DNA of 44,461 nucleotides from a bacterium. Its GTDB lineage: Bacteria; Myxococcota_A; Bradymonadia; UBA7976; UBA1532. This document shows positions 20,061-41,427 of the stretch, piece after piece. Where the stretch lies: positions 1 to 44,461 of the forward strand of contig JAUHVS010000001.1 in NCBI GenBank assembly GCA_030424955.1, read 5' to 3'. Within the stretch, counting starts at the first letter, position 1; each line of letters begins with the position of its first letter. The position numbers were made by a program, and so were the translations under genes. Under the pieces are notes generated by a model. The model made no database searches, had not been told where the DNA came from, and worked only from the letters and a program-made list of their open reading frames with translations.

Positions 20061-20065
20061 GGCGC

Positions 20066-27289: not shown

Positions 27290-27799
27290 TCACAGGGTCT
27301 CGCCCTCCGGGCGCCGACCGACCATCTCGTCCAGCCGAGCCAGCAGCGGAAACAGCACAATGACCCCGACCAAGACCACGATGACGCGGGGCACCATCAA
27401 CGCCGTGACCCGGGTGGCGAGCAACGTGCCGTTGAAGAACAGCCGCGACAGGCCGGCGATCAGAGCGACGCTCGCGATCCCCCCAACCCCGCCCAGGAGC
27501 GCGTTGCCGACGATCCCTTGGAAGTGCACGCGGTTGCCCAGCCCCACCCCCAAGGCGTACACCGCCACGCCGTGCAAGAGGTGCAGCCCGAGCGGGCTGC
27601 CCGCAAACCCGTCTGCCAACAGCCCCAGCAGCGCCACCATGGTCGCGGTGCTCGCCGACACCGGGCGGCTGACCCCAAGCCAGAGGAGCAGCACCGTCAG
27701 GACGTCTGGCGTGAACGCATCCAGCGCGAACACGACCGACAGGAACTGCTGCGCCGAGAGCGCCGCCAGGCCGAGCAAGAAGATGGCGAGGGCTCGCAT
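27290..27799 (-). CDS. mreD: Rod shape-determining protein MreD
   Basis: A 169-aa polytopic hydrophobic protein. Its ATG shares one base with the mreC stop (TGATG at 27797-27801), the canonical position after mreC. Confidence 0.8.
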   Translation of the reverse strand: MRALAIFLLGLAALSAQQFLSVVFALDAFTPDVLTVLLLWLGVSRPVSASTATMVALLGLLADGFAGSPLGLHLLHGVAVYALGVGLGNRVHFQGIVGNALLGGVGGIASVALIAGLSRLFFNGTLLATRVTALMVPRVIVVLVGVIVLFPLLARLDEMVGRRPEGETL

Positions 27800-28695
27800 C
27801 AGCGCGGCCCCTTCTTCTTCTTGTCGCCCACAAAGGCATCACCGTCGGGGGTCAGCCCGCTCTGGCCGAGCACGACGAACACCTCTTCGAGGGCGTTCAG
27901 ATCAACCATCGGGAGCACATCGGCCTTTTGGAAGGGGCCGCTCTCGTCGCCCCCGACCGCCTGCACCCGCCCGACCACGAGGCCCCGCGGGTAGCGGCCG
28001 TCGTCGCCGGTGGTCATCACGCGCTCGCCATCGACGGCCTTGACCTCGCGCTGCAGGTATTGAAGGCGCGCGGCGTAGCGGTCGCGCTCGCCCGTACCCA
28101 CCGCCACCCCACGGGCCCGGCTCTGCTCCAGCACCACGTCGATGGCGCTGCGGGGATCGGTGACCAAGAGGACCTCGGCCTCGCCCCCGTCGACCGCGCG
28201 GATCTGGCCCACCACGCCGCCGGGGGCGATGACCGGCATGCCGGCGACCACCTCGGGCTGCGCGTCACGGACGTCCAACGCCACGCGCACCACGCGGAAG
28301 TACGGGCTCACCGTGCGGCTGACCACCCGTGCGGCCCGCAGCCGCAGATCCTTGCGGCGGTCGCCCAGATCGAGCAGCTGCCGCAGGCGCTCATTCTCGG
28401 CGGCCAGATCATCCGCGGTCGCGGCCCGGGCCTGCAGATCGCGCAGCCGAGAGGTCAGCTCTCGGTTGCTCTCGCGCACCTCGGTCAGCGCGACGTAGTC
28501 GAGCCACACCGCGCGCACCCCTTCCCCGCTCGCCGACACGGCGCGCTGGAGCGGGCCCACGCTCGTAATGACGACGGCGCCCAGGGCGCCCGGGCGCTCA
28601 CCACGCCGATCGAACTGCAGCAGGAACACGCCCAACGCCGCGTAGACCGCCAACAGCCCGGCGGCGCGCAGGGGAGAGGGACCGCGGCGCCTCAC
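27799..28695 (-). CDS. mreC: Rod shape-determining protein MreC
   Basis: GTG 28695, an N-terminal TM segment, a coiled-coil (NRELTSRLRDLQARAATADDLAAENERLRQLL), then beta-barrel motifs (GMPVIAPGGVVGQI, GRYPRGLVVGRV). Confidence 0.9.
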   Translation of the reverse strand: MRRRGPSPLRAAGLLAVYAALGVFLLQFDRRGERPGALGAVVITSVGPLQRAVSASGEGVRAVWLDYVALTEVRESNRELTSRLRDLQARAATADDLAAENERLRQLLDLGDRRKDLRLRAARVVSRTVSPYFRVVRVALDVRDAQPEVVAGMPVIAPGGVVGQIRAVDGGEAEVLLVTDPRSAIDVVLEQSRARGVAVGTGERDRYAARLQYLQREVKAVDGERVMTTGDDGRYPRGLVVGRVQAVGGDESGPFQKADVLPMVDLNALEEVFVVLGQSGLTPDGDAFVGDKKKKGPR

Positions 28696-28777
28696 AGGCA
28701 GCCACGCCCGGCCGGGCCGGACACCCGGGGCCAGTTCAGGTCAGGTTTCATCGCAAGGGGCGCGGGCCGTGGGGGGC

Positions 28778-29942
<1,165 letters not shown>

Positions 29943-30011
29943 TCCGCGTCCATTTGCCCGCGCGGCGCGCTGCTGCGGGGGATTTCCGACCGACACGAAC
30001 AGCGAACGGCC

Positions 30012-31733
30012 ATGCTGACCCAACTGCGACTGAAGTCTCAGAACTTCATGATCTTCATCCTCTTCGGGATGCTGATCTTTGTGTTCATCTTCTTCTTTGG
30101 CCCGCAGTCCCAGGGCTTCCAGCCGGGCGGGGGTCAGGTCTCAAGCACCGGCATCGCGGCGAAGGTCAACGGCACGGAAGTGCCCGCGGCCCACGTCGAG
30201 ATCGCCGTGCGACGGCAGGGCGACGTGGACGTCGACGACCTCCCGCGGGTGCGCCGCGAGGCGCTCCTCCAGGTGGTCGACCAGGAGCTGCTGGCCCAGA
30301 AGGCGCGCGCCGCGGGCCTCGCCATCAGCAAAGACGAGCTCTCGGCCTTCGTCGTCGGCAAGGCCAACCGCGACTTCGTGTTCTTCGCGGACCGCGACGG
30401 CAAGTTCGACTATCAGCGCTTCGAGGCCTACGTGACCCAGGGCTTCGGGACCTCCACCGCCGCCTACCGCGAGGCCAAGCGCCGCGAGCTCCTCGCCGAG
30501 CGCTACATCGGCTTCCTGGAGCAGCAGGTGCAGGTCAGCACCAGCGAGGTCAACGACGCCATCAAGCGGGCCCGCGCCACCTGGACCCTCGACTACGTGG
30601 TGTTCGATCCGGCCGACTGGAAGGCGACCGTGCCTGCCGCCACCGCCGAGCAGGGCGCGGCCTACGCGGCGAAGAACGCCGACGCGGTCGAGGCCTACTA
30701 CACCAAGAACAAGAAGACCTATGACCACGGCAAGGAGGTCCGCGTGCGCCGCGTGCTGATCCGCGCTGCGGCCGACGCGAGCGCCGACAAGAAGGCCGCC
30801 GCCAAGAAGAAGGCCGAGGCGCTCCACGCCCAGGCCACCGCGGCCGGCGCGGACTTCGAGAAGGTCGCTCGGGAGGGCTCCGAGGGCTACTACGCCAAGT
30901 TCGGTGGCGACATGGGCTGGCAGAGCGAGGACAACACCTCGAGCAGCGACTACGCCGTCTACAGCAAGCTCGCCCTGGGCCAGGTGTCGGCGGTGCAGGA
31001 GACGAACATCGGCTACTGGTTTGTGAAGGCCGAGGAGATCAAGCCCGCGGTGAAGAAGACCCTCGACGAGGTCCGCACCGAGATTGGCGTGCGCCTGGCC
31101 GCGGACGAGCTGCAGTCGAAGGCCGCGCGCGACGCCGCCACCGCCGCGCTGGCGAAGCTGACCGCCGGTGGTACCTTCGACAGCGTGTTCTCGGCGGAGG
31201 CCCAGGCGCCCGCGCCGGCGCCCGTCGAGGGCGATGCCCCCGCCGACGGCGAGGCGCCCGCCGCCCCCGCCGCGCCGGCCGCGCCCACGATGACCGTGCG
31301 CTCCACGCCGGCGTTCAACGCTGACCGCCCCGTGTTCGCTCGCATCCCCGGCCTGGGTCAGAGCGAGGCGCTGGCCCGCATGCTGCCCGACCTCAAGGCC
31401 GATCAGCCGCTGGTGAAGACCCTGATCGAGCTCGAGGGCGGCAAGGTCGCCATCGTGCGCCTGAAGGAGCGCACCGAGGCCAAGCCCGAGGACCTCACCA
31501 ACGACTTCGCCCAGACCGAGCAGCGGCTCCGGGCTCAGCGCCTCATGCAGCTGTTCGGCAACTGGCGCGCCGTCGTCTTCGGCGCCCCGTCGCAACGCGA
31601 GCTGGCGCGGAAGTTCGCCGGGGGCGCCCTGATGGCCGCCCTCGACGCCGATGGGGGCAAGGTCACGCTGAACGACAGCATGTACCCTGCGCCGGCGCCC
31701 CCTGCCTCCCCCACCTCGGCGGCGGCCCGCTGA
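30012..31733 (+). CDS. ppiD: PpiD-like periplasmic chaperone / parvulin-type peptidyl-prolyl isomerase with an N-terminal membrane anchor
   Basis: N-terminal anchor FMIFILFGMLIFVFIFFFG, then a SurA-N-like region. A parvulin-like segment follows (VRVRRVLI...ADFEKVAREGSEG...GGDMGW...IGYWFVKAEEIKP). Confidence 0.8.
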   Translation: MLTQLRLKSQNFMIFILFGMLIFVFIFFFGPQSQGFQPGGGQVSSTGIAAKVNGTEVPAAHVEIAVRRQGDVDVDDLPRVRREALLQVVDQELLAQKARAAGLAISKDELSAFVVGKANRDFVFFADRDGKFDYQRFEAYVTQGFGTSTAAYREAKRRELLAERYIGFLEQQVQVSTSEVNDAIKRARATWTLDYVVFDPADWKATVPAATAEQGAAYAAKNADAVEAYYTKNKKTYDHGKEVRVRRVLIRAAADASADKKAAAKKKAEALHAQATAAGADFEKVAREGSEGYYAKFGGDMGWQSEDNTSSSDYAVYSKLALGQVSAVQETNIGYWFVKAEEIKPAVKKTLDEVRTEIGVRLAADELQSKAARDAATAALAKLTAGGTFDSVFSAEAQAPAPAPVEGDAPADGEAPAAPAAPAAPTMTVRSTPAFNADRPVFARIPGLGQSEALARMLPDLKADQPLVKTLIELEGGKVAIVRLKERTEAKPEDLTNDFAQTEQRLRAQRLMQLFGNWRAVVFGAPSQRELARKFAGGALMAALDADGGKVTLNDSMYPAPAPPASPTSAAAR

Positions 31734-32193: not shown

Positions 32194-33318
32194 TCAGATG
32201 CGCTCGACCGCGCGGCGCAGCCGGTTGAAGCCGGCTCGATCCAAGCTACCGCTACGTAGGAACGCCAGCCGCAGCGCGAAGGCCCGCTCGACGAGGGTGT
32301 CCTGACCCAGAGCGCCCAGGCGGCGGATCAGCCCCGAGAGCCCCACGGCCACCCGGCGCCCATCACCGCGGTGGAACGCGCCGCTGATGTTCTCGCACTC
32401 CCCCACCAGCTCGGCGCGGTCGCGCAGATCGGCGGTCGGCGCGTGCACTTCCCGGTGCTGCCAGGGCGTGTCGGCCATCACGAGCGACAGCTCCAGCCGC
32501 TCCAGCCCCACCCGCTGTCCCCGGCGAAAGCGCAGCGACACGTCGAGCAGGCGGTAGTGACCCGCGGGCCGCGGGGTGACCTGCAGGTCGAACAGCCAGC
32601 TCAGCCGGGTCCCCCGCCCGAGCGGGCCCACGTCCAAGATGATGCGGCGATCGGCATCGGTCAGGCGCGGCACGCCCAGCAGCACCGGCACCGGCTCAGC
32701 CCGGAAGATGCGGCCCGCCTCGATGCCGGGCGCCACGGTCACATCGAGCAGGGGCCCGCTCACGGCCTGGGTGCTCAGCTCCACCAGGCGCGCTGCGAAG
32801 GCAGGCTCGGAGGGGCGCTCTTGCATCATCAGCTCACCGCGGCCGACCGCAGCGACCTGGCCGAGCAGGCTCAGCTCGACCGCCGGGTGGCTGGCGATGA
32901 CGTCGACGCCCCACGCGCGCTCGGCGATGGCCCCCGCCGCGTCCAGCAGCGGCTCGGGCGCCTCCAGCCCCGCGCCCCCCACCACCAGCAGCAGGTGCGC
33001 CGGGGGGGCGTCCTCGGCGGGGCGGTTCAAGAACGCGCGCAGCGCCGCGTTCAGCGAGCCGAACCCGCGGCCGGAGAGGCGCGCCCCCGCCCGCGGACCA
33101 TCGGGCGTCAGGGTGGTGACCGACAGGCCCTGCACGCTGGCCTCGAGGGCCGCGCACACGGCGCTGGTGTGGGGCTCCACGTGGGCGATGTACAGGTCGA
33201 TGGGCAGGGGCGGACCATCGGGCGCGTCGACCGCGACCCAGCCGTGCACGAGGGAAGGCTGGCCAGACCGCACGACCCCCGGCGTCAGCGCGCCCGTCAG
33301 CCGCGGAGAGACGCTCAC
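32194..33318 (-). CDS. vWA-like protein with a degenerate metal-ion-dependent adhesion site (hypothetical)
   Basis: GTG 33318 overlaps the stop of the upstream gene (GTGA, 33315-33318); the alternative ATG 33366 would overlap it by 52 nt. The layout matches bacterial vWA proteins (beta-rich leader, PIDLYIAHVEPHTS where hhhhDxSxS is expected, HLLLVVGGAG where LLTDG is expected, GVDVIASHPAVELSLLGQVAAVGRGEL, then a beta-rich tail). The metal ligands are substituted. Confidence 0.5.
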   Translation of the reverse strand: MSVSPRLTGALTPGVVRSGQPSLVHGWVAVDAPDGPPLPIDLYIAHVEPHTSAVCAALEASVQGLSVTTLTPDGPRAGARLSGRGFGSLNAALRAFLNRPAEDAPPAHLLLVVGGAGLEAPEPLLDAAGAIAERAWGVDVIASHPAVELSLLGQVAAVGRGELMMQERPSEPAFAARLVELSTQAVSGPLLDVTVAPGIEAGRIFRAEPVPVLLGVPRLTDADRRIILDVGPLGRGTRLSWLFDLQVTPRPAGHYRLLDVSLRFRRGQRVGLERLELSLVMADTPWQHREVHAPTADLRDRAELVGECENISGAFHRGDGRRVAVGLSGLIRRLGALGQDTLVERAFALRLAFLRSGSLDRAGFNRLRRAVERI

Positions 33319-35207
33319 GTCGGCGCCCCCGGATCGAAGTCCTGCGGGAAGCGCAGCACGATGCACGAGATGTTGTCGCCCCCGCCCCCGCGGTTCGCGA
33401 GCACCATGAGCTCAAAGGCCGCCCACCGCGCGCCGGGCGCGGTCTCGACGATCTCGCGCACGCGGTCCTCAGCGTCCTCTTCGTCGTAGCCGCCGTAGTC
33501 GGGGATCCCGTCCGAGCAGAGCACGAGGGTGTCGCCGGGCAGCATGGTCATGCGCCGGAACTCAGGCTTCAGGTCCACCGGGATCAGGCGATCGTCGTGG
33601 CTCTTCTCGAACTCGCCCACGCAGCGGATCAGCGCGGCGGCCGACGGGACAGCGCGCGCCACCCGAGGTGGCCGCCCCATCCGCACGAGCTGAGTGGCCA
33701 GATCGTGATCCACCAAGAGCGAGGTGATGTGCCCGTCGCGCACGAGGTAGATGCGGCTGTCGCCGATGGACATCAGCGTCGCCTGGTTGCCCTCCACGAG
33801 CACCGCCACGGTGGTCGCCGCCATGATGCCCTCGGCCGGGCCGAAGAACCGGGGCGTCTCTCGGTGGATGAGCTGGGCGATCCGGGCGTTGGCCGACTGG
33901 ATCATCGCCTTGAGGACCGCTCGCCGCCCGGTCTCATTGTCGGGCAGGCTGGGGTTGGCGTCATCGAGCCCGTCGAGGGTGGTGTCTTCGTCGATGTTGG
34001 CGTCCCCAGGGCGGCCCTCGAGCACGGCCTGCCAGGTCGACACGGCCGACGCGCGGACACAGCCGCTGGCCTGATCCCCCGTGCCATGCTCCGAGATGCT
34101 CACCCCATCGCTGACCACGAACAGGCCGATGCCGGATGCCGCGTGGTAGCCGATGAAGAGGTCGTCCTGGTTGATGGGCGAGTATTGGCCTTTGAGCACG
34201 CCGATGTGCCGCTCGTGCCCGATCTCGGGGCGCAGCGGCCCGGCCTCCTCGGCCGCACGCCGGCGCGCAGTGCCCACGGCGCTGCGCAGCGCCGACCGGA
34301 GCGCCCCCACGTCGCTGTAGCGCCGGTCAGGCAGCGGCGACACCGCCCGCCGGGCCACTGCACACAGCTCGGGGGGCAGGCCATCGCGGTGCACATGGGG
34401 CGGCGGGAGGGGGTGCTCGAAGTCGCTGGCCTCGAGCACGGGCGGGACCCGGGTCAGCACGTAGTAGAGGGCCATCCCCACGAAGAAGACGTCCGTGCGG
34501 GCGTCGACCTCTCCCCCGCAATGGCCCAGGTGCTCGGGGCTCGAGAAGCCCACCACGTGCCGCCGCTGCGGTCCCCCCGGCCGGCCCGTCGGGGCGGCCA
34601 GCAGCACCCGGTCTTCGAGCACCCTGACCTCTTCGGGATCGGCGAGCCCCAGCACCTCGCCGCGGCTGTGGATCGTCGCGACCGCGTCGGCCAGAGGCAG
34701 GACCCACCGCTCCACCGCCGCGAGCAAGGCCTCCCCCGTCAGGCCTCCCCCCTCGCGGAGCGCCGTGAGGCCATCGGCGAGGGACGGGCCGCTGGGCGAC
34801 GCCAGGACCGTGAGCTCCCAGGGGCCCGCGCGCCCCGCCCACAGCGAGGCACCGATGAGCGGCCCCGCCCACCCCTGGCAGCCCCGCCAGTGCGGGTGCA
34901 GCTGGTCTGGATCGGCCTCGTCGGTGATCAGGACCGCGCAGGGCTCGCCTCGCAGGATCGCGTCGAAGCGCGCGCCCGCCCCGGCCAACGGACGGCGGGT
35001 CAGCAGCCTGAGGGGACCCACGTCGGCCTGCAGCACATCGCCCGCCTCCGGCCAGCGCGCGCCGTCGGCGAAGCGCCGGCGGCCACACCCGCCGCAGACG
35101 AGGCCTACCGCAGAGCTGCCACACCCGGCGCAGCCCCACTGGACATCGACGGGCCCGGTCACAGACGGCTCGATGGCCAGTTCGTCTCCGGAGGGGGGCT
35201 GCGACAC
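33315..35207 (-). CDS. Four-Cys ribbon + pseudokinase domain + PP2C-family Ser/Thr phosphatase fusion (~630 aa)
   Basis: The first start after the upstream stop is GTG 35207. Ribbon: CAGCGSSAVGLVCGGCG. Kinase-fold remnants: SSPEHL and DVFFVGMALYYVLT. In place of HRDLKPxN it has GEVLGLADPEEV, and there is no VAIK Lys. PP2C motifs: SPINQDD, VVSDG, IGDSRIYLVRDG, VLCSDG and GGGDNISCIVL. Confidence 0.7.
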   Translation of the reverse strand: MSQPPSGDELAIEPSVTGPVDVQWGCAGCGSSAVGLVCGGCGRRRFADGARWPEAGDVLQADVGPLRLLTRRPLAGAGARFDAILRGEPCAVLITDEADPDQLHPHWRGCQGWAGPLIGASLWAGRAGPWELTVLASPSGPSLADGLTALREGGGLTGEALLAAVERWVLPLADAVATIHSRGEVLGLADPEEVRVLEDRVLLAAPTGRPGGPQRRHVVGFSSPEHLGHCGGEVDARTDVFFVGMALYYVLTRVPPVLEASDFEHPLPPPHVHRDGLPPELCAVARRAVSPLPDRRYSDVGALRSALRSAVGTARRRAAEEAGPLRPEIGHERHIGVLKGQYSPINQDDLFIGYHAASGIGLFVVSDGVSISEHGTGDQASGCVRASAVSTWQAVLEGRPGDANIDEDTTLDGLDDANPSLPDNETGRRAVLKAMIQSANARIAQLIHRETPRFFGPAEGIMAATTVAVLVEGNQATLMSIGDSRIYLVRDGHITSLLVDHDLATQLVRMGRPPRVARAVPSAAALIRCVGEFEKSHDDRLIPVDLKPEFRRMTMLPGDTLVLCSDGIPDYGGYDEEDAEDRVREIVETAPGARWAAFELMVLANRGGGGDNISCIVLRFPQDFDPGAPT

Positions 35208-35271
35208 CCGGCTCTCATCCCCTGCGCCACCTTGGCGCAGTGTACGGGCCGCCGAAGCCGCCCGGCGTGGC

Positions 35272-35904
35272 TCAGAGGTCGATAGCGACCAGGTTGGAGC
35301 GTCCCGAGCGCTGCTTCGGCGCGTCACCGTAGGCGATGACGTAGAAGCTCCACGCGCCCTCGTCCAGCTCCACCTGCAGCCGAGTCTCGGCGGTCCGCCA
35401 GGTGTGACTCCGCTGCGGCACCGTGGCCTCATCGGTCTGCCAGCGGATTCCGTGAACGACGTAGTCGGCCGCACCCTCCACGGCACTCCAGGTCAACACG
35501 GCGGTCTTGTCGTCGAGCTCGAGGTTGAGGTGCGGGGCCTCCAAGAAGCCGGTCTCGCGGCCGCAGAAGAGGCACTGGGCCTCGTCGCGATCTCGACCGC
35601 GCACCCCCTCGAAGGCGTCGTCGATGATGCAGCGCCAGAGGCACGGCCGGTCGTCAGCGCAGCCCTGCGCGCAGGCGCCAGCCTGTGCGGCGCGGGCGAA
35701 GCGCGTGCCGTCGGGCAACCGACGGCTCGGCAGGGCAGACCGGGGCATCCCCTCGTCGGTCGGGAGTCGCTGGAGCGACAGCGCGCCGGCCCTCGACTCG
35801 ACCTCAGGCGCAGGCGGCGCCTCGGCGCAGCCCCCCACCAGCAGACCCACTGCGACCGCCAGCCACAGGGCGTACCGCTGACGTGCGAACGGCAGGTGGC
35901 CCAT
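35272..35904 (-). CDS. Lipoprotein with a six-Cys segment and a C-terminal fibronectin type III-like domain
   Basis: ATG 35904 lies 6 nt after GAGGAGGG and 1 nt after the upstream stop. Signal peptide with lipobox: MGHLPFARQRYALWLAVAVGLLVGGC. Six-Cys segment: CAQGCADDRPCLWRC...CLFC. FN3-like end: LTWSAVEGAADYVV...SFYVIAYGD. Confidence 0.7.
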   Translation of the reverse strand: MGHLPFARQRYALWLAVAVGLLVGGCAEAPPAPEVESRAGALSLQRLPTDEGMPRSALPSRRLPDGTRFARAAQAGACAQGCADDRPCLWRCIIDDAFEGVRGRDRDEAQCLFCGRETGFLEAPHLNLELDDKTAVLTWSAVEGAADYVVHGIRWQTDEATVPQRSHTWRTAETRLQVELDEGAWSFYVIAYGDAPKQRSGRSNLVAIDL

Positions 35905-35905
35905 C

Positions 35906-36688
35906 TCAGCCCTCCTCATCGTCGTCACGGACCAGGGTGGCGCCCGCATAGATGGCGTAGGTGCGGGCGTCGTCGGCGTCCTGTGCGCTGTCCTCCAGGT
36001 CGCGGTAGCGCTCACGGATGAACGCGAAGAACTCGTCGCGGAGCGCATCTACGTCTTCGGGGCGGGCCCGGAAGGTGAAGGTCCGCGCCGCAGCCGTCTC
36101 AGGCTCGTCGCTCAAGAACCGCCGGCGCACCGTCTCGGTCACGGCCTCGAGGTGCTCGCGCAGGGCGTCGACCCGGGCCTCCCAGTCAGCGTCGCTGTAG
36201 AGGTCGTGGTGCTGCCCGATCACGCGGTAGCGCACCTTGCCGCCCGGCTCTCGCGGGAGCTCCTCGATCCGCTGCTCCCGCAGGAGCGCCCGGACCGCCA
36301 GGCGGGTGCTGTCGAACTCGTTGCAATGCGGCAGGCGGTCGGCCAGCTCGTCGATGGTCATCGAGCGCTGCCGCAACAGGTCCTCGACCCGCCGCATCAG
36401 GTTGGTCTCGTTCTCGGCGAAGAAGCCGCCCTTGTTGAAGCGCGCCGAGAGCGCCTTCACCGTGCGCGTGGACTTGCCGAAGATCAGCGAGATCAGGTTG
36501 ATCGTCGAGTGCTTCTGCTTCGCCTCGCGCCACAGCGCGAGGGTCATCATGTCCTTGACGGTGTCGAGGGGGTAGTTGAAGTCCACGGCCATCTTCACGG
36601 CCGGGTAGAACGACGTGAACAGGATCCGCAGGACGTATTCGGGGTAAGGAATCCCCCGTGCCGCCACGTCGTGTGCTTGACCTTGCAT
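35906..36688 (-). CDS. Putative DNA-binding protein with two HTH/winged-helix-like segments and an acidic tail
   Basis: ATG 36688 is preceded by GAGGGG. HTH-like segments: STINLISLIFGKSTRTVKALSARF and MTIDELADRLPHCNEFDSTRLAVRALLREQRIEEL...KVRYRV. It ends ...VRDDDEEG. Confidence 0.5.
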   Translation of the reverse strand: MQGQAHDVAARGIPYPEYVLRILFTSFYPAVKMAVDFNYPLDTVKDMMTLALWREAKQKHSTINLISLIFGKSTRTVKALSARFNKGGFFAENETNLMRRVEDLLRQRSMTIDELADRLPHCNEFDSTRLAVRALLREQRIEELPREPGGKVRYRVIGQHHDLYSDADWEARVDALREHLEAVTETVRRRFLSDEPETAAARTFTFRARPEDVDALRDEFFAFIRERYRDLEDSAQDADDARTYAIYAGATLVRDDDEEG

Positions 36689-36739
36689 GCGCCCCTCGCC
36701 GTGCTGTCGATGCCGCGAGCCCACGCCGCGCCAGTCTGG

Positions 36740-36768
36740 ACGATAACGTAGCGGTGACGTGCAGGCAA
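36740..36768 (-). promoter_or_regulatory. Candidate sigma70-type promoter for the 36688->32194 operon (-35 TTGCCT, 17 nt, -10 TATCGT on the minus strand)
   Basis: Minus-strand TTGCCT = 36763-36768 and TATCGT = 36740-36745, about 50 nt upstream of ATG 36688. Confidence 0.3.
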
Positions 36769-36810
36769 CGCGGCGGCCCGCACGGGGCGGCCCTGCCCTG
36801 TTTTTCGCGT

Positions 36811-36833
36811 TGTGGGCTGCCCACAGCTAGAAT
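36811..36833 (+). promoter_or_regulatory. Perfect 15-nt palindrome TGTGGGC-T-GCCCACA abutting a TAGAAT -10-like box (candidate operator/promoter of the plus-strand operon)
   Basis: The palindrome is 36811-36825 and TAGAAT is 36828-33. GGAGGG follows at 36845-36850 and the ATG at 36857. No good -35 hexamer lies at a 17-nt spacing. Confidence 0.4.
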
Positions 36834-36856
36834 GGGGCGTCTGCGGAGGGGCACCT

Positions 36857-37318
36857 ATGAGTCGGTCAACCTGGACGTCCGCCACCCGGCGCCCGCTCGC
36901 GGCAGCGCAGCGGGCCGTCGCGTACCAGCCGGCCCGTGCGGAGGCCCTGCCCGCCCTGTTCACCGTGGATGGCCAGGTGGACGTGCACGCGCTCCACGCC
37001 CTGCTCTCGGCCGCCGAGGTGGCCATCGAGGGCGGCCGCTACGACGACGCGGGCCCCGTCGAGACCTTTGTCGGCTCGGCGACCTTCGAGCTCTCCCTGC
37101 CAACGCCGCGCGCCAGCCGCGCGGCGCTCGCGCAGGACCCGCGCGCTGCACAGGCCCTGCAGGACCACACCCGACGGCACCTGGCCAGCCTCCTGGGCGC
37201 CGAGATGCCCCCGCGGCTGACCTTCGACATCGCCATCCGCGTCGTGGACGAGCAGCTCCGCGTCACCGTCGACTTCGAGGGCCCGTTGGCCCCGGGGGCG
37301 GTCGCCCACGGGTCATGA
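36857..37318 (+). CDS. Hypothetical protein (153 aa)
   Basis: ATG 36857 has GGAGGG 6 nt upstream. Its stop overlaps the next start (ATGA, 37315-37318). No motif recognised. Confidence 0.55.
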   Translation: MSRSTWTSATRRPLAAAQRAVAYQPARAEALPALFTVDGQVDVHALHALLSAAEVAIEGGRYDDAGPVETFVGSATFELSLPTPRASRAALAQDPRAAQALQDHTRRHLASLLGAEMPPRLTFDIAIRVVDEQLRVTVDFEGPLAPGAVAHGS

Positions 37319-38220
37319 GCGTCTCGTCCCCCCCGCTCGGTGAGGCCACGCCGTATGGCGTCCGCGATCTGGTGCGTCTGACGGGCGCGCCCGAGGCGCA
37401 GCTGCGTCGCTGGCACCGCAGCGGCCTCTTGCCCGCCACCCGGGTCGACAGCGCCCTGCGCTACCGCTTCGCGGACGTGATCGCGGCCCGGACGGCGCGC
37501 GCCCTGCTGGCCCAAGGGCTGACGACGCGCCGCGTCCGCGAGGCGGTGGAGGCCGTGCGCGCCTGGCGCCCCGACGTCCCCCACCCGCTCGCGTCCCTGC
37601 GGGTGTTCGCGGAGGGCGGCCACCTGCTCGTTCGCATCGACGATCAGGTCATGGTGGGCCACTCGGGCCAGCTGCTGCTGGACCTGCCGCTGGCCGAGGA
37701 GCTGCCGCCCGCTGTGCTCGCCCCCGTGCAGGCGCTGGGCACCGACGTCCCGCGGGACGCCGATGGCTGGGTGGACTGGGCCCGGGCGGCTGAGCTCAGC
37801 GGCGAGCCCTCTGCGGTCGCCCTGGGGCGCTACGCCCAGGCCCTCCAGCTCGATCCAGCCCACCCCGGCGCCCTCATCGGCGCCGGCAACGTGGCCTTTG
37901 TCGACGGCCGACTGGAGGACGCGCAGGGGCTGTATGAGCGGGCGACCCGCGCGGCGGCCCAACACCCGCACCCCTGGTACAATCTGGCCAACGTCTTGGA
38001 CGAGCGCGGCCAGGTGGACGCGGCCGCCAGCGCCTACGCCGCGGCCCTCGGGCGCGACCCCGACTTTGTCGACGCCCACTTCAACCTCGCGCTCCTGTGG
38101 GAGAAGCATGGCCAGCGAGGCCGCGCTGCCCCCCACTGGACCCGGGTCGTCGAGCTCGACCCCGGCTCGGACGCCGAGGCCCTCGCCCGGCGGTTCCTCG
38201 CGGACGACACCGATCGTTGA
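37315..38220 (+). CDS. MerR-family HTH protein fused to TPR-like repeats
   Basis: YGVRDLVRLTGAPEAQLRRWHRSGLLPATRVDSALRYRFADVIAART is a MerR-type N-terminus. The C-terminus carries TPR-like repeats (ALGRYAQALQLDPAHPGAL, WYNLANVLDERGQVDAAASAYAAALGRDPDF, HFNLALLWEKHGQ). Confidence 0.75.
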   Translation: MSVSSPPLGEATPYGVRDLVRLTGAPEAQLRRWHRSGLLPATRVDSALRYRFADVIAARTARALLAQGLTTRRVREAVEAVRAWRPDVPHPLASLRVFAEGGHLLVRIDDQVMVGHSGQLLLDLPLAEELPPAVLAPVQALGTDVPRDADGWVDWARAAELSGEPSAVALGRYAQALQLDPAHPGALIGAGNVAFVDGRLEDAQGLYERATRAAAQHPHPWYNLANVLDERGQVDAAASAYAAALGRDPDFVDAHFNLALLWEKHGQRGRAAPHWTRVVELDPGSDAEALARRFLADDTDR

Positions 38221-38508
38221 GGCCGCCCGGGGGCGTTCGGTGCGCGGCCCACGCCGCCGCGGGCCTCGCCGAGCGACCCTTGGAAACCGCCCCGTAGGCC
38301 TGTGCGGGCGGCCGCCCACCCCGACCCGCGGACCTGGACGGCAGATTGCCTCAGCGCACGAGAACTGCTACGGTCCGCCGTCCACTGTCGTGCGCGCGAC
38401 ACGCCCAACCAGGCGCAAACGCGATCGGCGGCGGATCGGCCACCCCCCGGCCGGTATCACCTGCGGGGTTCCCCCTACGAGCGCAACGACGCGGAGACCC
38501 TTCGAGCC

Positions 38509-41427
38509 GTGATTTGTCCCCTCTGTCAGGCAGAGATCGACGACGCCGCCAAGACTTGTGGGTATGACGGCGGGCCCCTCAAAGGGTCTGCCGGCTTCTG
38601 CCCCTTCTTCGGCACCCGGCTCGTCGCCGGCGATGGTGAGATCAGCTTCATCGGCCAGACCCTCGTCGACCGATACCGCATCGACGAGAAGCTCGGTCAA
38701 GGCGCTGTCGGCGTTGTGTACCGCGCCACCGATGCGGAGGGCGGCCGCACCGTGGCCGTCAAGATCCTCAACCCGGCCTTCTCGCCCGGCATGGACGAGA
38801 CCACCCGCGCCTTCGCGGACGTGGACCGGGCGACCGCCATCGGCAGCCCTCACCTCGTCCCCACCCTCGGGGTGGGCGCGCACCAAGACCGCAGCGCGTT
38901 CTTCGTAGAGCCCCTGCTCGGCGATGGCAGCCTGGCGCAGCGGCTGGCCGACCACGGCCCGATGGCGCCCGCGCTGGTCGTCCAGGTCGCGCTGGAGGTG
39001 CTCGCCGCGCTCGATGGCCTGCACGGCGCGGGGCTGACGCACCTGGCGCTCAAGCCCAGCAACCTGTTCTTGATCCGCGATCCCCTGGGGATGGAGCGCG
39101 CCGTGCTCGGCGGCGTGGGCATGCACCACCTGTATCGCCTCGACCAGGCGCCCGTGAAGGCGAGCGGCGAGTGCCTCGCCCGCCCGGAGTACCTGGCCCC
39201 GGAGATCGCGTCGGGCAAGCCCCTCGACGCCCGTACCGACCTGTATTTGTTCGGCATTCTCATGTACGAGATGCTGACGGGCCGCCCGCCGTTCAGTGGC
39301 GGCAACTTCAAGACCGTCGCCCGGCGGCACACCCTCGAGAAGCCGGTCAGCCCGCAGCTTGTGCGCGCTGAGGCCCGCATGGGCGACGCCCTGTCGTCGG
39401 CCGTCATGCGGTGCCTGGAGAAGAAGCCTGAGAAGCGCTGGCCGGACGCCAAGGCGTTGATGACCGCCTTGCAGGCGCTGGCCAAGGCCGGCTTCGCCAC
39501 CTCCCGCGGCCTCAAGACGACGACCATGACCCCGGGCCCCGCGGCCCCGGTCAGCGACGAGCCCGAGCAGGCCGTCGCCGACAAGGCTGCCGCCGACAAG
39601 GCTGCCGCCGACAAGGCCGCCGCCGACAAGGCCGCCGCCGACAAGGCTGCCGCCGACAAGGCCGCCGCCGACAAGGCCGCCGCCGACAAGGCCGCCGCCG
39701 ACAAGGCTGCCGCCGACAAGGCCGCTGCGGAGAGCGACTCGCCCGAAGGCGCGGATCAGGCCGACGCCGGCAGCCGCCGGGGCAACAAGCGCGGCAAGCG
39801 CCGCGGGAACACCAAGAAGAGCCGCTCCACGGGCGCCAACAAGACCACCAGCGGCGCAGCCGCCGAGGCGGCCCCCCTGGGTGAGCCGGCGGGCACCTTG
39901 CCCGGCGTGCGTGCGCCCGCACCAAAGGCGGGGCCCACGCCGAAGCCCCACGCGACGGACAGCGGCGCGAAGGCCGACGTGGCCCGCGCCACGGCCGCTG
40001 CCGCCGCCGCGAAGGCGCCCCCGAGCAAGCGTTCCGGCGCCGTCGACATGGCCCCCTCGGCTGAAGAGGGTCACTTCGCGGAAGACCACGACTGGTTCGT
40101 CGATACGGCCGACCAGCTGCAGGATCACCACGCCAAGCTGTCGGTGTACCAGCTGCAGGAAGAGCCTGAGCGCAGCCTGTTCCCGATCATCGTCGGCGTC
40201 GTGGCCCTGCTGGTGGGCGCCATCGTCTTGTACTTCGTGCTCTCGGGGGGCGAGTCCCCCAGCCCGCTGGCGCCGGACGCGGGCGCGATGGCGGCCGTGT
40301 CAAACGCCCGCCAGCCCGACGCCCGTCCGCCGACGGCGGCCGCGCCGCCACCGGTCGACGCCGCCGCCCCTGCGGCGGCTGAGGACGCAGGGGCGACCGT
40401 GGACGCCGCCCCCGATGCTGCTGCGGGCGCCGATGCGGCCCGCCCCGGGGCCGCCCTCGAGGCCCGGCTTGAGGCCGCCCTCGCCGCCCGGCGGTGGCAA
40501 GGATCGCCCGACGCCTTCGTCGAGACCTTCGAGGCGCTGCGCGCGGCCGAGCCCCGAAACGCAGCGGCTGAGTCCGCCGCCATCAAGGCGGTGGCGGCCC
40601 TCACCGAGGAGAGCGAGCGACACCTGGCCGCCGGCGCCTTCGAGCCGGCTCGGGCGTCGCTGCGGCTCGCGAAGCGCCTCGCCCCCAAGAACCGGGTGTT
40701 GGACGGGGCGCTCAGCGCCGTGGACGCGGCCGAGGCGAAGGTCGCGACCGACGCGAAGGCTGCCGCCGCTGCCGACGCCAAGGCCGCTGCCGACGCCAAG
40801 GCCGCTGCCGACGCCAAGGCCGCCGCTGACGCCAAGGCCGCTGCTGACGCCAAGGCCGCCGCTGACGCCAAGGCGGCTCAGGCGCGGCTGAAGGCGGCCG
40901 CCGAGGCAAAGGCCCGGGCCAAGGCCACGGCCGATGCCTCCGCCCGCGCCAAGGCTGAGGCAGCCGCTCGGGCCAAGGCGGACGCTGCCGCACGCGCGAA
41001 GGCTGAGGCGGCCAAGGCCGCCGCCGCGAAGGCCAAGAACGCCTCGGCCGCCAACGAGCGCAAGGCCCAGATTCGCGCCGGGCTGAAGCAGGCCGATGCC
41101 GATCTGAAGGCCGCCGACCTGAAGGCCGCCGAGCGTGGCTACCGCGCCGTCTTGAAGCTCGACGGCCGGAGCGCCGCCGCCTACGCCGGGCTCGGCGAGG
41201 TGGCGTTCCAGCAGCAGCAGTTCGATCAGGCTGTGCAGCACCACACCCGCAGCACCCGCCTGTCGCCGAGCAACGCGAGCTACCAGGTCAGCTTGGGCAT
41301 GGCGTACTTCCGCTTGCAGAAGTACGCCGACGCCAAGACCCACTGGGAGCGCGCCCTTCAGCTGCGGCCCGGCGACGCGAAGGCGACGAAGTACCTGGCC
41401 CTGGTCAAGAAGAAGCTGGGCGGCTGA
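38509..41427 (+). CDS. Membrane-spanning Ser/Thr-kinase-like protein. Order: Cys ribbon, kinase domain lacking the HRD and DFG aspartates, (ADKAA)10, basic patch, TM helix, Ala/Lys/Asp/Glu-rich stalk, C-terminal TPR
   Basis: The start is uncertain. I chose GTG 38509 (GGAGA 11 nt upstream), just before CPLCQAEIDDAAKTC; the open frame extends back to GTG 38302. Kinase-like motifs: GQGAVGVVY, VAVKIL, GLTHLALKPSNLFL, LGGVGM, PEYLAPE and DLYLFGILMYEMLTGRPPF. TM helix: LFPIIVGVVALLVGAIVLYFVL. TPR-like end: AAYAGLGEVAF...ASYQVSLGMAYF.... Confidence 0.75.
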   Translation: MICPLCQAEIDDAAKTCGYDGGPLKGSAGFCPFFGTRLVAGDGEISFIGQTLVDRYRIDEKLGQGAVGVVYRATDAEGGRTVAVKILNPAFSPGMDETTRAFADVDRATAIGSPHLVPTLGVGAHQDRSAFFVEPLLGDGSLAQRLADHGPMAPALVVQVALEVLAALDGLHGAGLTHLALKPSNLFLIRDPLGMERAVLGGVGMHHLYRLDQAPVKASGECLARPEYLAPEIASGKPLDARTDLYLFGILMYEMLTGRPPFSGGNFKTVARRHTLEKPVSPQLVRAEARMGDALSSAVMRCLEKKPEKRWPDAKALMTALQALAKAGFATSRGLKTTTMTPGPAAPVSDEPEQAVADKAAADKAAADKAAADKAAADKAAADKAAADKAAADKAAADKAAADKAAAESDSPEGADQADAGSRRGNKRGKRRGNTKKSRSTGANKTTSGAAAEAAPLGEPAGTLPGVRAPAPKAGPTPKPHATDSGAKADVARATAAAAAAKAPPSKRSGAVDMAPSAEEGHFAEDHDWFVDTADQLQDHHAKLSVYQLQEEPERSLFPIIVGVVALLVGAIVLYFVLSGGESPSPLAPDAGAMAAVSNARQPDARPPTAAAPPPVDAAAPAAAEDAGATVDAAPDAAAGADAARPGAALEARLEAALAARRWQGSPDAFVETFEALRAAEPRNAAAESAAIKAVAALTEESERHLAAGAFEPARASLRLAKRLAPKNRVLDGALSAVDAAEAKVATDAKAAAAADAKAAADAKAAADAKAAADAKAAADAKAAADAKAAQARLKAAAEAKARAKATADASARAKAEAAARAKADAAARAKAEAAKAAAAKAKNASAANERKAQIRAGLKQADADLKAADLKAAERGYRAVLKLDGRSAAAYAGLGEVAFQQQQFDQAVQHHTRSTRLSPSNASYQVSLGMAYFRLQKYADAKTHWERALQLRPGDAKATKYLALVKKKLGG
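39577..39726 (+). repeat. Ten perfect-length 15-nt tandem units encoding (ADKAA)10
   Basis: The unit gccgacaaggcYgcc occurs ten times head-to-tail. Copies differ only at a synonymous C/T position, except that the last unit ends gct. Confidence 0.95.
40750..40881 (+). repeat. 18-nt tandem units encoding (DAKAAA) about 7 times
   Basis: The unit gacgccaaggccgcYgcY occurs six times from 40774, preceded by a 24-nt variant at 40750. It is followed by related AKAEAAARAKADAAARAKAEAA sequence. Confidence 0.9.

What the first reader, a model, noticed from the sequence alone, without database searches (positions are those of the whole stretch)
32194..36688. Tightly coupled four-gene module: wHTH-like protein / Cys-rich FN3 lipoprotein / Cys-ribbon-pseudokinase-PP2C fusion / MIDAS-less vWA-like protein
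Seen: four same-strand genes are joined by a 1-nt gap (stop 35906-35908, GGAGG, ATG 35904), a 64-nt gap, and a GTGA start/stop overlap (33315-33318). A single expression unit is therefore likely. Domain reading, from my own motif inspection: (1) two HTH-like segments plus an acidic tail; (2) lipobox LLVGGC, a six-Cys segment and an FN3-like C-terminus; (3) a CxxC-x8-CxxC ribbon, a kinase fold without catalytic residues, and PP2C; (4) a vWA-like layout without DxSxS. Established, recalled from memory: vWA, PP2C and Ser/Thr kinase genes recur together as a 'TerY-phosphorylation triad' in comparative-genomic work on Ter stress systems. Inference: this looks like a rewired triad in which only the phosphatase can still be catalytic. 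It is extended by an envelope-exposed lipoprotein and a DNA-binding protein. I know of no characterised system with this composition.
Basis: partly seen in the sequence, partly recalled or inferred. Interest (0 to 1): 0.8.

Follow-up and report, generated by a model that had tools for sequence, protein, structure and literature searches.

The report
Pseudokinase-phosphatase fusion with degenerate vWA partner
Four tightly packed genes in a Myxococcota genome encode a cut-down protein-phosphorylation switch (a zinc-ribbon/dead-kinase/live-phosphatase fusion with a metal-site-less vWA scaffold) beside a conserved winged-helix protein and a surface lipoprotein; it is an uncharacterised variant of a known kind of signalling module.

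Summary
Four real minus-strand genes (GC3 0.88-0.92) are joined by a 1-nt gap, a 64-nt gap and a GTGA overlap.

All four domain readings hold with tools:
- g1 is a winged-helix-like protein.
- g2 is a lipobox protein with a C-terminal FN3 domain.
- g3 carries a CxxC-x8-CxxC zinc ribbon, a Hanks-kinase fold lacking G-loop, VAIK-Lys, HRD-Asp and DFG, and a PP2C with every metal-binding motif invariant.
- g4 is a vWA domain without MIDAS.

New findings:
- g4 is an ArnB-like three-domain protein (vWA, beta-sandwich, helical bundle). Its closest structures are 4FX5 and the archaeal ArnA-ArnB complex, where a zinc finger docks on ArnB. Canonical relatives of g4 lie in vWA/PP2C/FHA/kinase clusters.
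- Comparison of about 27 related loci shows two separable coupled pairs, g1-g2 and g3-g4.
- In 17 loci a histidine-kinase/receiver/histidine-kinase trio lies between the pairs. It looks ancestral and lost here.
- The locus is vertically inherited core chromosome next to mreBCD. It is not a defence island, and no TerY-P defence models match.

Verdict: a new degenerate variant of the known vWA/PP2C/Ser-Thr-kinase signalling theme. Function is untested. Interest is moderate.

The parts
35906..36688 (-). g1: 260-aa cytoplasmic protein. It has an N-terminal helical/HTH-like region, a central winged helix (about residues 97-156), two long C-terminal helices and an acidic tail. It is the most conserved of the four genes.
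   Evidence: 123 homologue clusters at 51-83% identity, none with a curated name. 25 of 33 members give sub-threshold hits to Pfam PF21476 (PF0610-like wHTH), best E 9.7e-6. The AF2 model has pLDDT 72. Foldseek hits are weak but consistently HetR, ArnR/SmtB, PadR and MarR type wHTH regulators, best E 2.3e-3. No transmembrane segment.
35272..35904 (-). g2: 210-aa predicted lipoprotein. It has a signal peptide with lipobox Cys26 (codon 35827-35829), a variable Cys-containing linker, an invariant C-x2-C-G-RETGF-x-P motif (RETGF at 35545-35559) and a C-terminal FN3 domain (about 35275-35532).
   Evidence: A signal peptide plus Cys is conserved in 22 of 23 homologues. C26, R116-F120, W139 and S203 are invariant. 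A profile search against PDB hits titin and fibronectin FN3 domains (4.9e-17 to 2e-5). Pfam fn3 matches 5 of 15 members. The first four Cys of the 'six-Cys segment' are not conserved across the family.
35085..35132 (-). g3 N-terminal zinc ribbon, C26-x2-C29-x8-C38-x2-C41.
   Evidence: The ribbon is present in 23 of 27 close-clade orthologues and in many distant ones. C38 and C41 are at least 90% conserved. A distant orthologue hits Pfam Zn_ribbon_3. The proposed role as a docking element for g4 is an inference from ArnA-ArnB (PMC12852372).
34248..35030 (-). g3 pseudokinase domain (about residues 60-320).
   Evidence: A family profile hits PknB at E 9.7e-13 over profile positions 90-307, and Tribbles pseudokinases at 4e-9. 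NCBIfam kinase models match the C-lobe. The G-loop, VAIK-Lys, HRD-Asp, catalytic Asn and DFG are absent in every orthologue, while the APE motif and subdomain IX Asp are retained.
33348..34205 (-). g3 PP2C (PPM) phosphatase domain (about residues 335-620), predicted active.
   Evidence: Pfam PP2C_2 at 1.2e-9. NCBIfam Stp1 PP2C at 2.8e-24. PDB tPphA and PstP at about 4e-18. The motifs N346-Q-D348, D367-G-V-S, G482-D-S-R485, S565-D-G567 and G607-GGG-D611-N612 are invariant in 23 sequences.
33315..35207 (-). g3 whole gene (630 aa, GTG start).
   Evidence: 64 full-length homologues at 38-73% identity, all from Myxococcota or Bradymonadia-labelled MAGs.
32194..33318 (-). g4: 374-aa ArnB-like protein. 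N-terminal strands and residues about 186-283 form a beta-sandwich. Residues about 40-185 form a vWA fold without MIDAS. Residues about 285-374 form a four-helix bundle. The conserved points are P13, E309, D319, R350, R355, S/T356 and G357.
   Evidence: AF2 model with pLDDT 93 and pTM 0.89. Foldseek: 4FX5 at 9.8e-19 (TM 0.73), ArnAB complex 8S05 at 3.5e-17, ArnB paralogue 5A8J at 1.3e-15, then Sec23/24. hhalign against canonical VWA relatives gives 99.93% probability and E 9.6e-36 over 383 columns, with DxSxS, T and D all replaced.
33315..33318 (-). GTGA overlap between the g4 start and the g3 stop, implying translational coupling.
   Evidence: Sequence read directly. The same 4-nt overlap occurs in 20 of 28 related loci.
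35208..35271 (-). 64-nt g2-g3 spacer. In most relatives this is the site of a 3.5-kb HK-RR-HK trio.
   Evidence: No terminator-like site. Folding z-score is -0.10. The trio is present at this position in 17 related loci and absent from the whole window.
36689..36811 (-). Region upstream of g1, shared with a divergently transcribed gene. It holds a weakly conserved promoter-like block at about 36741-36770.
   Evidence: An alignment of 22 upstream regions shows a recurring TGCA...(G)CTAnAGT-like block 35-60 nt before the ATG. The sigma-70 consensus scan found nothing, so this is only a lead.

Best explanation
The locus holds two translationally coupled gene pairs that are neighbours in a vertically inherited chromosomal block.

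Pair g3-g4 is a degenerate, fused derivative of the widespread prokaryotic module of vWA protein, PP2C and zinc-ribbon Ser/Thr kinase (with or without FHA). This theme includes the TerY-P-type triads and the archaeal ArnA-ArnB module.
- g3 joins a zinc ribbon, a catalytically dead kinase fold and an intact PP2C.
- g4 is an ArnB-like scaffold of vWA, beta-sandwich and helical bundle that has lost its metal-ion site.

Proposed mechanism (inferred, not shown):
- The g3 zinc ribbon tethers g3 to the beta-sandwich/helical-bundle face of g4, as the ArnA zinc finger docks on ArnB.
- The pseudokinase acts as a docking or allosteric domain. It could bind a phosphoprotein, a trans-acting Hanks kinase or a phosphorylated receiver.
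- The PP2C removes Ser/Thr phosphates from the g4 helical bundle (candidate site S356 in the conserved R-x4-R-S/T-G turn) or from a client held by g4.
- The complex therefore works as a phosphorylation-dependent switch whose only enzymatic activity is dephosphorylation.
- In most relatives the input probably comes from the HK/receiver/PAS-HK trio just upstream of g3. This lineage has lost that trio from the locus.

Pair g1-g2 is a highly conserved wHTH protein and an exported FN3 lipoprotein with an invariant RETGF motif. It is linked to g3-g4 by conserved neighbourhood only. g1 may be the transcriptional output and g2 an envelope-side component.
For: Shown:
- Domain identities.
- PP2C motifs are invariant while kinase catalytic residues are absent in all orthologues.
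- g4 matches 4FX5 and ArnB over all three domains.
- MIDAS residues are replaced throughout the family, whereas canonical relatives keep DxSGSM/T/LTDG.
- g3->g4 coupling occurs in 27 of 27 informative loci, 20 of them with a 4-nt overlap.
- Canonical relatives of g4 lie in STK / vWA / ZnR-PP2C / vWA / ZnR-FHA / STK clusters and in a vWA / FHA / STK cluster.
- The ArnA zinc finger (CxxC-x10-CxxC) docks on the ArnB beta1-beta2 loop, linker helix and helical bundle, and the bundle is the phospho-switch (PMC12852372 and PMC6509490).
- In g4, the near-invariant P13 lies in the loop between the first two predicted strands, and the most conserved residues cluster in the helical bundle.
- Three of the four orthologues without a zinc ribbon have the most divergent g4.
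- The HK-RR-HK trio is orthologous and adjacent to g3 in 17 loci and appears ancestral.
- g1-g2 are present in 22 of 23 loci with enough upstream sequence.
Against: - No physical interaction, phosphatase activity, phosphosite or transcript was tested.
- No complex prediction could be run.
- Many distant-clade ZnR-pseudokinase-PP2C proteins have no vWA gene within 10 kb, so the ribbon is not tied only to g4.
- Loss of MIDAS removes the usual vWA ligand-binding mechanism, so how g4 binds anything is unknown.
- g2 is exported while g1, g3 and g4 are cytoplasmic, so g2 cannot touch them directly.
- The whole region (MerR-TPR, pseudokinase-TPR, surA-like, mreBCD-pbp2-rodA) is syntenic in these genomes. 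Part of the co-occurrence may therefore be inheritance rather than function.
- The g1 fold assignment is weak (pLDDT 72, best Foldseek E 2e-3).
- The NJ tree has no support values.
Confidence: 0.55

Rival explanations
1. These are two unrelated units that are merely neighbours. g3-g4 is a self-contained phospho-signalling pair. g1-g2 is an independent regulator and lipoprotein pair. Their adjacency here comes from deletion of the intervening two-component genes and from slow genome rearrangement in this lineage.
For: The pairs are separated by 3.5 kb in 17 loci. They are inverted and on the other side of g4 in L003 and L020. g1-g2 are absent within 10 kb in L023. Synteny extends well beyond the four genes. 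g1 has its own conserved promoter-like block. g1 has more homologue clusters (123) than g3 (64).
Against: g1-g2 stay within 5 kb of g3-g4 in 22 of 23 informative loci, even where g3 identity has fallen to 40-50% and g4 to about 20-30%. When rearranged, the pairs move but remain neighbours.
Confidence: 0.25
2. It is an anti-phage defence system of the TerY-P type (vWA, PP2C and kinase) in degenerate form.
For: It has the same three domain types. TerY-P-like modules are validated defence systems (Gao et al. 2020, as cited in PMC11090510).
Against: No PADLOC model matches g4, g1 or g2. g3 matches only generic kinase models (PD-T4-6, PglW), not TerY-P. The kinase is dead in every orthologue. The locus is core chromosome between heme, sulfite-reductase and cell-shape genes, with conserved synteny and no mobile-element signs. 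Composition is uniform across the window.
Confidence: 0.04
3. It is a regulator of cell envelope or cell shape. The module senses envelope state through the g2 lipoprotein and tunes the adjacent surA-like and mreBCD-pbp2-rodA genes through g1.
For: Adjacency to surA-like, mreB, mreC, mreD, pbp2 and rodA is constant in L001-L004 and in the window. g2 is an envelope lipoprotein. The trio's HK2 is a membrane hairpin kinase with almost no periplasmic loop, a type that often relies on accessory proteins (general knowledge).
Against: This rests on positional evidence only. mreBCD operons are conserved everywhere regardless of neighbours. No g1 operator was found: the only palindrome (36811-36825) is not conserved. 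This reading concerns biological role and is compatible with the main explanation rather than excluding it.
Confidence: 0.15

Closest known systems
ArnA-ArnB motility-repression module of Sulfolobus acidocaldarius (PDB 8S05, 5A8J; PMC12852372, PMC6509490)
   Same: Two adjacent genes. One encodes a three-domain protein of vWA, beta-sandwich and helical bundle; the g4 model matches ArnB at Foldseek E 3.5e-17 and TM 0.63. The partner starts with a four-Cys zinc ribbon followed by a phospho-signalling domain. ArnAB is a Ser/Thr-phosphorylation-dependent switch with a Sec23/24-like core.
   Different: ArnA carries FHA, where g3 carries pseudokinase and PP2C. ArnB keeps a functional MIDAS (D46, S50, T110, T135, D136), which g4 has lost. 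ArnAB is archaeal. Its kinases (ArnC/D) and phosphatase (PP2A) are separate proteins. No sequence-level orthology was shown; the resemblance is structural and architectural.
TerY-P / 'STK-zinc ribbon + PP2C + vWA' triads (Anantharaman et al. 2012 and Gao et al. 2020 as cited in PMC11090510; also PMC7159879)
   Same: The same three domain types are genomically linked, and a zinc ribbon is attached to the kinase-fold protein. These triads are proposed to be phosphorylation-dependent switches.
   Different: The triad has three separate genes with an active kinase (ribbon or OB fold at the C-terminus), an active PP2C and a short TerY-type vWA with MIDAS. They are often in defence or mobile contexts. 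Here the kinase and PP2C are fused, the ribbon is N-terminal, the kinase is dead, the vWA is ArnB-type without MIDAS, the context is core chromosome, and no PADLOC model matches g4 or the PP2C domain.
Bacterial vWA / ZnR-PP2C / vWA / ZnR-FHA / STK clusters holding canonical relatives of g4 (L086, L087) and the Deinococcus DRA0331-0334 vWA/STPK/FHA/PP2C operon (bioRxiv 10.64898/2026.01.23.701218)
   Same: The vWA proteins are homologous to g4 (representative search E 1e-9 to 6e-4; hhalign 99.9%) and have the same three-domain layout. One PP2C carries an N-terminal zinc ribbon. In the Deinococcus operon the PP2C has an N-terminal docking domain (KI-FHA) that directs it to kinases.
   Different: Those clusters keep active kinases, FHA readers and MIDAS. 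g3 replaces the docking domain with a pseudokinase and has no FHA partner in the locus.
PP2C-kinase fusion proteins of Pseudomonas and Deinococcus (PMC1262709)
   Same: A PP2C domain and a Hanks-kinase fold lie in one polypeptide.
   Different: The order is PP2C then kinase, and the kinase domain is treated as a genuine STYK in that survey. Neither a zinc ribbon nor a coupled vWA gene is reported.
4FX5, vWA protein of Catenulispora acidiphila (structural-genomics entry, function unknown)
   Same: It is the best structural match (E 9.8e-19, TM 0.73) and the best PDB sequence-profile match (1.3e-4 across vWA, sandwich and bundle).
   Different: It keeps the TDG/MIDAS elements (alignment). No partner or function is known.

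Membership tests
PP2C / PPM Ser-Thr phosphatases | PPM fold with conserved metal-binding Asp residues (motifs xxD, DGxxG, GDSR, DG, DN) | tested here: met
   Pfam PP2C_2 scores 38.5 bits, above the 24-bit cutoff. PDB tPphA and PstP at about 4e-18. D348, D367-G368, G482-D483-S484-R485, D566-G567 and D611-N612 are invariant in 23 orthologues.
PP2C / PPM Ser-Thr phosphatases | Mn2+/Mg2+-dependent phosphatase activity | not testable with these tools
   Needs an enzyme assay.
Hanks-type Ser/Thr protein kinases | Protein-kinase fold | tested here: met
   The family profile hits the PknB kinase domain at E 9.7e-13 over about 220 positions. The C-lobe hits NCBIfam kinase models at 1e-6 to 1e-7. The APE motif and subdomain IX Asp are conserved.
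Hanks-type Ser/Thr protein kinases | Catalytic residues: Gly-rich loop, VAIK Lys, HRD Asp, catalytic-loop Asn, DFG Asp | tested here: not met
   All are absent in the window protein and in every close- and distant-clade orthologue examined. It is therefore a pseudokinase by the usual sequence criteria (criteria as in bioRxiv 10.1101/2025.01.12.632604).
von Willebrand factor A (vWA) domain | vWA alpha/beta fold and homology to Pfam VWA proteins | tested here: met
   hhalign against 18 proteins that all match PF00092 gives 99.93% probability and E 9.6e-36. Foldseek hits vWA structures. All PDB profile hits are vWA domains. No direct Pfam hit for any of 28 members.
von Willebrand factor A (vWA) domain | MIDAS (DxSxS ... 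T ... D) | tested here: not met
   The aligned positions read A/I-x-V/H-G/E-x in place of DxSxS. There is no Thr, and the LTDG Asp is replaced, across the whole g4 family.
TerY-P triad / TerY-P defence system | TerY-type vWA protein recognised by defence-system models | tested here: not met
   No PADLOC hit for g4 even at E <= 1. g4 is a 374-aa three-domain ArnB-like protein. That TerY is a short single-domain vWA is from memory.
TerY-P triad / TerY-P defence system | Active Ser/Thr kinase with C-terminal zinc ribbon or OB fold, encoded separately from the PP2C | tested here: not met
   The kinase fold is inactive, fused to the PP2C, and has its ribbon at the N-terminus. Definition taken from PMC11090510.
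TerY-P triad / TerY-P defence system | Linked PP2C phosphatase | tested here: met
ArnA-ArnB-type module | ArnB architecture: N-terminal strands, vWA, beta-sandwich and C-terminal helical bundle | tested here: met
   AF2 secondary-structure order. Foldseek 8S05 at 3.5e-17 and 5A8J at 1.3e-15 over about 410 columns.
ArnA-ArnB-type module | Adjacent partner gene whose product begins with a four-Cys zinc ribbon | tested here: met
   C26/C29/C38/C41 in g3; conserved in 23 of 27 orthologues.
ArnA-ArnB-type module | FHA domain in the partner; phosphorylated Thr in the helical bundle; ribbon-to-ArnB contact | tested here: not met
   There is no FHA in g3; a pseudokinase and PP2C take its place. The phosphosites and the ribbon contact could not be tested.
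Bacterial lipoproteins | Signal peptide ending in a lipobox with invariant Cys | tested here: met
   The sequence LLVGG-C26 follows a hydrophobic segment (KD 1.71). Cys is conserved in 22 of 23 homologues. Lipidation itself is untestable here.
Fibronectin type III domain | FN3 sequence profile | tested here: met
   The family profile hits titin, fibronectin and collagen XX FN3 domains (4.9e-17 to 2e-5). Pfam fn3 matches 5 of 15 members, best 2.3e-4. The window protein alone gives no Pfam hit.
Winged-helix DNA-binding regulators | wHTH fold, and DNA binding | tested here: inconclusive
   Sub-threshold PF21476 hits in 25 of 33 members. Foldseek hits wHTH repressors with target-normalised TM of about 0.5 but E >= 2e-3, from a model with pLDDT 72. 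DNA binding was not tested and no conserved operator was found.

The most novel reading that the evidence does not exclude
g3 and g4 form a bacterial counterpart of the archaeal ArnA-ArnB (Sec23/24-like) zinc-finger/vWA core. Both ancestral ligand and catalytic sites (MIDAS and the kinase active site) have been lost. A tethered PP2C is the only enzyme. The pseudokinase has been re-used as the receiver of input from a two-component phosphorelay. This links His-Asp and Ser/Thr signalling to a lineage-specific wHTH regulator and an envelope lipoprotein carrying a new RETGF motif.
Probability: 0.2. Interest if true: 0.65.

Novelty: new variant of a known kind. Interest (0 to 1): 0.5.

Why it matters
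Bacterial pseudokinases and MIDAS-less vWA domains are both poorly understood. Here they occur together, translationally coupled, with one intact enzyme. This gives a simple natural system for asking what a dead kinase fold does for a phosphatase, and how an ArnB/Sec23-like scaffold works without its metal site.

The structural link to ArnAB extends that archaeal switch architecture, and its proposed relation to the COPII Sec23/24 core, to Bacteria.

The frequent insertion of an HK/receiver/HK trio between the pairs suggests a junction between two-component and Ser/Thr signalling.

The practical limit is that the close clade is known only from metagenome-assembled genomes. A related ZnR-pseudokinase-PP2C without the vWA partner exists in cultured Lujinxingia vulgaris.

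Tried and rejected
- Single-sequence Pfam and NCBIfam scans of g1, g2 and g4 found nothing. Scanning all 28 g4 members against Pfam also found no vWA. Only profile and structure methods worked.
- The word-indexed homologue search found just one relative of g4. The exhaustive representative search was needed.
An alignment of representative-search hits was accepted.
- The PADLOC scan for TerY-P or other defence models gave only generic kinase hits, so the defence reading was rejected.
- A profile search of g1 against PDB gave only insignificant RicA/YmcA hits.
- The perfect palindrome TGTGGGCTGCCCACA upstream of g1 is absent from all 87 loci held when the search was run. It is also not rarer than chance when mismatches are allowed. 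It was rejected as a conserved operator.
- The sigma-70 and terminator scan and folding of the g2-g3 spacer found nothing informative.
- A literature search for 'RETGF' returned only TGF-beta mouse-strain names. No paper describes a pseudokinase-PP2C-vWA system.
- A transmembrane scan showed only g2 has a signal-like segment. Direct contact between g2 and the other three proteins was therefore rejected.
- A canonical-vWA HMM found no vWA gene beside the distant-clade g3 homologues.

Full report
**Observation.** ORF listing and direct reading of the sequence confirm four minus-strand genes.
- g1 is 35906-36688 (260 aa).
- g2 is 35272-35904 (210 aa).
- g3 is 33315-35207 (630 aa, GTG start).
- g4 is 32194-33318 (374 aa, GTG start).

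- After the g1 stop TGA (35908-35906) there is one base, then ATG at 35904, with GGAGG just upstream.
- The g2-g3 spacer is 64 nt (35208-35271).
- GTGA at 33318-33315 is shared by the g4 start and the g3 stop.

Third-position GC is 0.88-0.92 for all four genes, so they are real genes in this roughly 71% GC sequence. The public gene call for g3 is 573 aa and omits the Cys ribbon. Orthologues of 610-670 aa with a conserved ribbon support the longer form.

**g3.**
- Pfam and NCBIfam find a PP2C domain at residues about 340-620 and only weak kinase C-lobe hits.
- A profile of 23 orthologues hits bacterial PP2C structures (tPphA, PstP; about 4e-18), the PknB kinase domain (9.7e-13 over about 220 positions) and the Tribbles pseudokinases.
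- All PP2C metal-binding motifs are invariant in the alignment (NQD348, D367GVS, GD483SR, SD566G, GGGD611N).
- The Gly-rich loop, VAIK Lys, HRD Asp, catalytic Asn and DFG are missing in every orthologue.
- The N-terminal C26-x2-C29-x8-C38-x2-C41 ribbon is present in 23 of 27 close orthologues.

**g4.**
- No curated model matches any of 28 family members.
- The family profile hits only vWA domains in the PDB, best 4FX5 at E 1.3e-4 across three domains.
- An exhaustive search of 1.8 billion representatives found 54 relatives. The distant ones all match Pfam VWA and carry DxSGSM, T and LTDG.
- A profile-profile comparison of the g4 family with these gives 99.93% probability and E 9.6e-36 over 383 columns. 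Every MIDAS position is substituted in g4.
- The AlphaFold model is confident (pLDDT 93, pTM 0.89).
- Its best structural matches are 4FX5 (9.8e-19, TM 0.73), the archaeal ArnA-ArnB complex 8S05 (3.5e-17) and the ArnB paralogue 5A8J (1.3e-15). Sec23/24 follow.

g4 is therefore an ArnB-like protein of vWA, beta-sandwich and helical bundle without MIDAS. It is not a short TerY-type vWA.

**g2.**
- A signal peptide ending in a lipobox Cys is conserved in 22 of 23 homologues.
- The C-terminal 85 residues are an FN3 domain by PDB profile search (titin, fibronectin, collagen XX) and by Pfam fn3 in 5 of 15 members.
- The invariant core is C-x2-C-G-R-E-T-G-F-x-P. The RETGF part is repeated two to five times in some homologues.

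**g1.**
- g1 is the most conserved of the four. It is 55-81% identical across loci where g3 is 40-73% and g4 21-66%.
- It has 123 homologue clusters and no curated annotation.
- 25 of 33 members give sub-threshold hits to a wHTH model, PF21476.
- A moderate AF2 model (pLDDT 72) resembles HetR and ArsR, PadR and MarR type regulators only weakly.

'wHTH-like' is reasonable. DNA binding is unproven.

**Comparative genomics.** A GTDB-wide scan plus contig look-ups gave 84 loci. All are labelled Myxococcales, Bradymonadia, Myxococcota or unclassified MAGs.
- In the close clade (about 27 unique loci), g4 follows g3 in every locus with downstream sequence. The 4-nt overlap occurs in 20 of 28.
- g1-g2 are present in 22 of 23 loci with enough upstream sequence, and their junction is 6 nt or less in about 15 of 22.
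- The two pairs are separable. An orthologous cytoplasmic HK, single-domain receiver and membrane HAMP-PAS-HK trio (55-88% identical) lies between g2 and g3 in 17 loci.
- In L003 and L020 the g1-g2 pair lies downstream of g4 on the other strand. L023 lacks g1-g2 nearby.
- The window has no copy of the trio.
- On an NJ tree of g3, trio-bearing loci are basal and surround the window+L001 branch. The compact four-gene layout here is therefore probably a secondary deletion (no support values).
- Synteny also extends to a MerR-TPR gene, a kinase-TPR gene, a surA-like gene and mreBCD-pbp2-rodA. This is core chromosome, not an island.

**Relation to known systems.**
- Canonical relatives of g4 are encoded in STK / vWA / zinc-ribbon-PP2C / vWA / zinc-ribbon-FHA / STK clusters and in a vWA / FHA / STK cluster. 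Another sits beside DUF58.
- This is the known theme of vWA, PP2C and kinase-with-zinc-ribbon (TerY-P; PMC11090510, PMC7159879). It also resembles the Deinococcus DRA0331-0334 operon.
- PADLOC models do not recognise g4 or the PP2C of g3. The defining active, separately encoded kinase and the MIDAS-bearing TerY are absent. The locus is therefore not a member of TerY-P, although it plausibly descends from the same kind of module.
- The closest characterised analogue in structure is ArnA-ArnB. The ArnA four-Cys zinc finger docks on the ArnB beta1-beta2 loop, linker helix and helical bundle. Sequential Thr phosphorylation of that bundle switches the complex (PMC12852372, PMC6509490).
- In g4, the few well-conserved positions are P13 in the loop between the first two strands, and E309, D319, R350, R355, S/T356 and G357 in the bundle.
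- Three of the four orthologues that lost the ribbon have the most divergent g4.

These points fit a ribbon-on-scaffold complex with a phospho-regulated bundle, but they do not prove it.

**Mechanism proposed.**
- Shown: the domain identities, the coupling of the pairs and the homology to triad vWA proteins.
- Inferred: g3 is tethered to g4 by its ribbon.
- Inferred: the pseudokinase is a docking or allosteric module.
- Inferred: the PP2C dephosphorylates the g4 bundle or a client of g4.
- Inferred: input came ancestrally from the adjacent two-component trio.
- Inferred: g1 and g2 are a linked output regulator and envelope component.

I put domain identities at above 0.9, a g3-g4 physical and functional pair at about 0.7, the specific ribbon-docking/PP2C-switch mechanism at about 0.4, and a functional link between g1-g2 and g3-g4 at about 0.5.

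**Rivals.** Two independent neighbouring units (0.25), a defence system (0.04), and an envelope or cell-shape regulatory role (0.15). The last is compatible with the main model.

**Novelty and interest.** No paper in the searchable library describes this composition. It is a new, doubly degenerate, fused variant of a known module rather than a new category. It is moderately interesting as a clean case of a pseudokinase and pseudo-MIDAS vWA around a single live phosphatase. It is also a bacterial parallel to ArnAB.

Noticed in passing
window 38302-41427 (+): The syntenic neighbour annotated by Pfam as Pkinase+TPR is itself likely a pseudokinase. The DFG Asp is replaced (GGVG) in all orthologues. 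HRD is HLD in relatives and HLA in the window. A sub-clade has also lost the G-loop and VAIK Lys. The protein also carries long AADK/DAKAA low-complexity repeats. The locus thus holds two dead kinase folds and no evident active one.
   Followed up: partly
between g2 and g3 in L002, L004, L006, L007, L009-L014, L019, L024, L025, L029, L030, L069, L072 (e.g. L002:4309-7852): An orthologous trio lies directly upstream of g3 in 17 related loci. It consists of a cytoplasmic HisKA kinase, a single-domain receiver, and a membrane-hairpin HAMP-PAS histidine kinase with almost no periplasmic loop. It is absent from the whole 44-kb window. It is better conserved (55-88%) than g3 or g4.
   Followed up: partly
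window 35545-35559 (-); L022:3045-3917: An invariant RETGF motif (usually C-x2-C-G-RETGF-x-P) precedes the FN3 domain of the g2 lipoprotein family. It is present in two copies in several homologues and five tandem copies in L022. No known motif or literature match was found.
   Followed up: partly
window 36812-38220 (+): A conserved pair is transcribed divergently from g1. It consists of a 150-168-aa protein with no Pfam hit and a MerR-HTH + TPR protein (37318-38220). Both are syntenic in L001-L003.
   Followed up: no
window 36811-36825: A perfect 7-1-7 palindrome, TGTGGGCTGCCCACA, lies in the g1 / divergent-gene intergenic region. It is not found in any related locus and is not statistically unusual when mismatches are allowed.
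   Followed up: yes
window 2661-10931 (-) and 12439-19341 (-): Two giant genes. By GC3 (0.96) the real 2756-aa ORF is on the minus strand, not the mirror 2797-aa plus-strand ORF. It holds many PKD, REJ and Ig-like repeats, so it is probably a surface protein. The second is up to 2300 aa, is Asp/Gly-rich and ends in a PPC domain.
   Followed up: partly
window 33315-35207 (-) versus protein P0001: The public gene call for g3 is 573 aa and starts after the zinc ribbon. Automated annotation therefore hides the ribbon in this genome.
   Followed up: yes
L031-L084, e.g. L043 (Lujinxingia vulgaris TMQ2, NZ_VOSL01000054.1) 8984-11146: A wider family of 600-840-aa proteins with a pseudokinase and PP2C, many of them starting with a zinc ribbon, exists in Bradymonadales and other Myxococcota, including a cultured species. 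They have no g1, g2, g4 or other vWA gene within 10 kb.
   Followed up: partly
window 18549-22272 (-), 24085-31733, 41684-43345 (+): The housekeeping context includes cobA/hemD fusion, hemA, rodA, pbp2, mreD/C/B, a surA-like chaperone and sulfite/nitrite reductase. This supports a core-chromosome location.
   Followed up: yes
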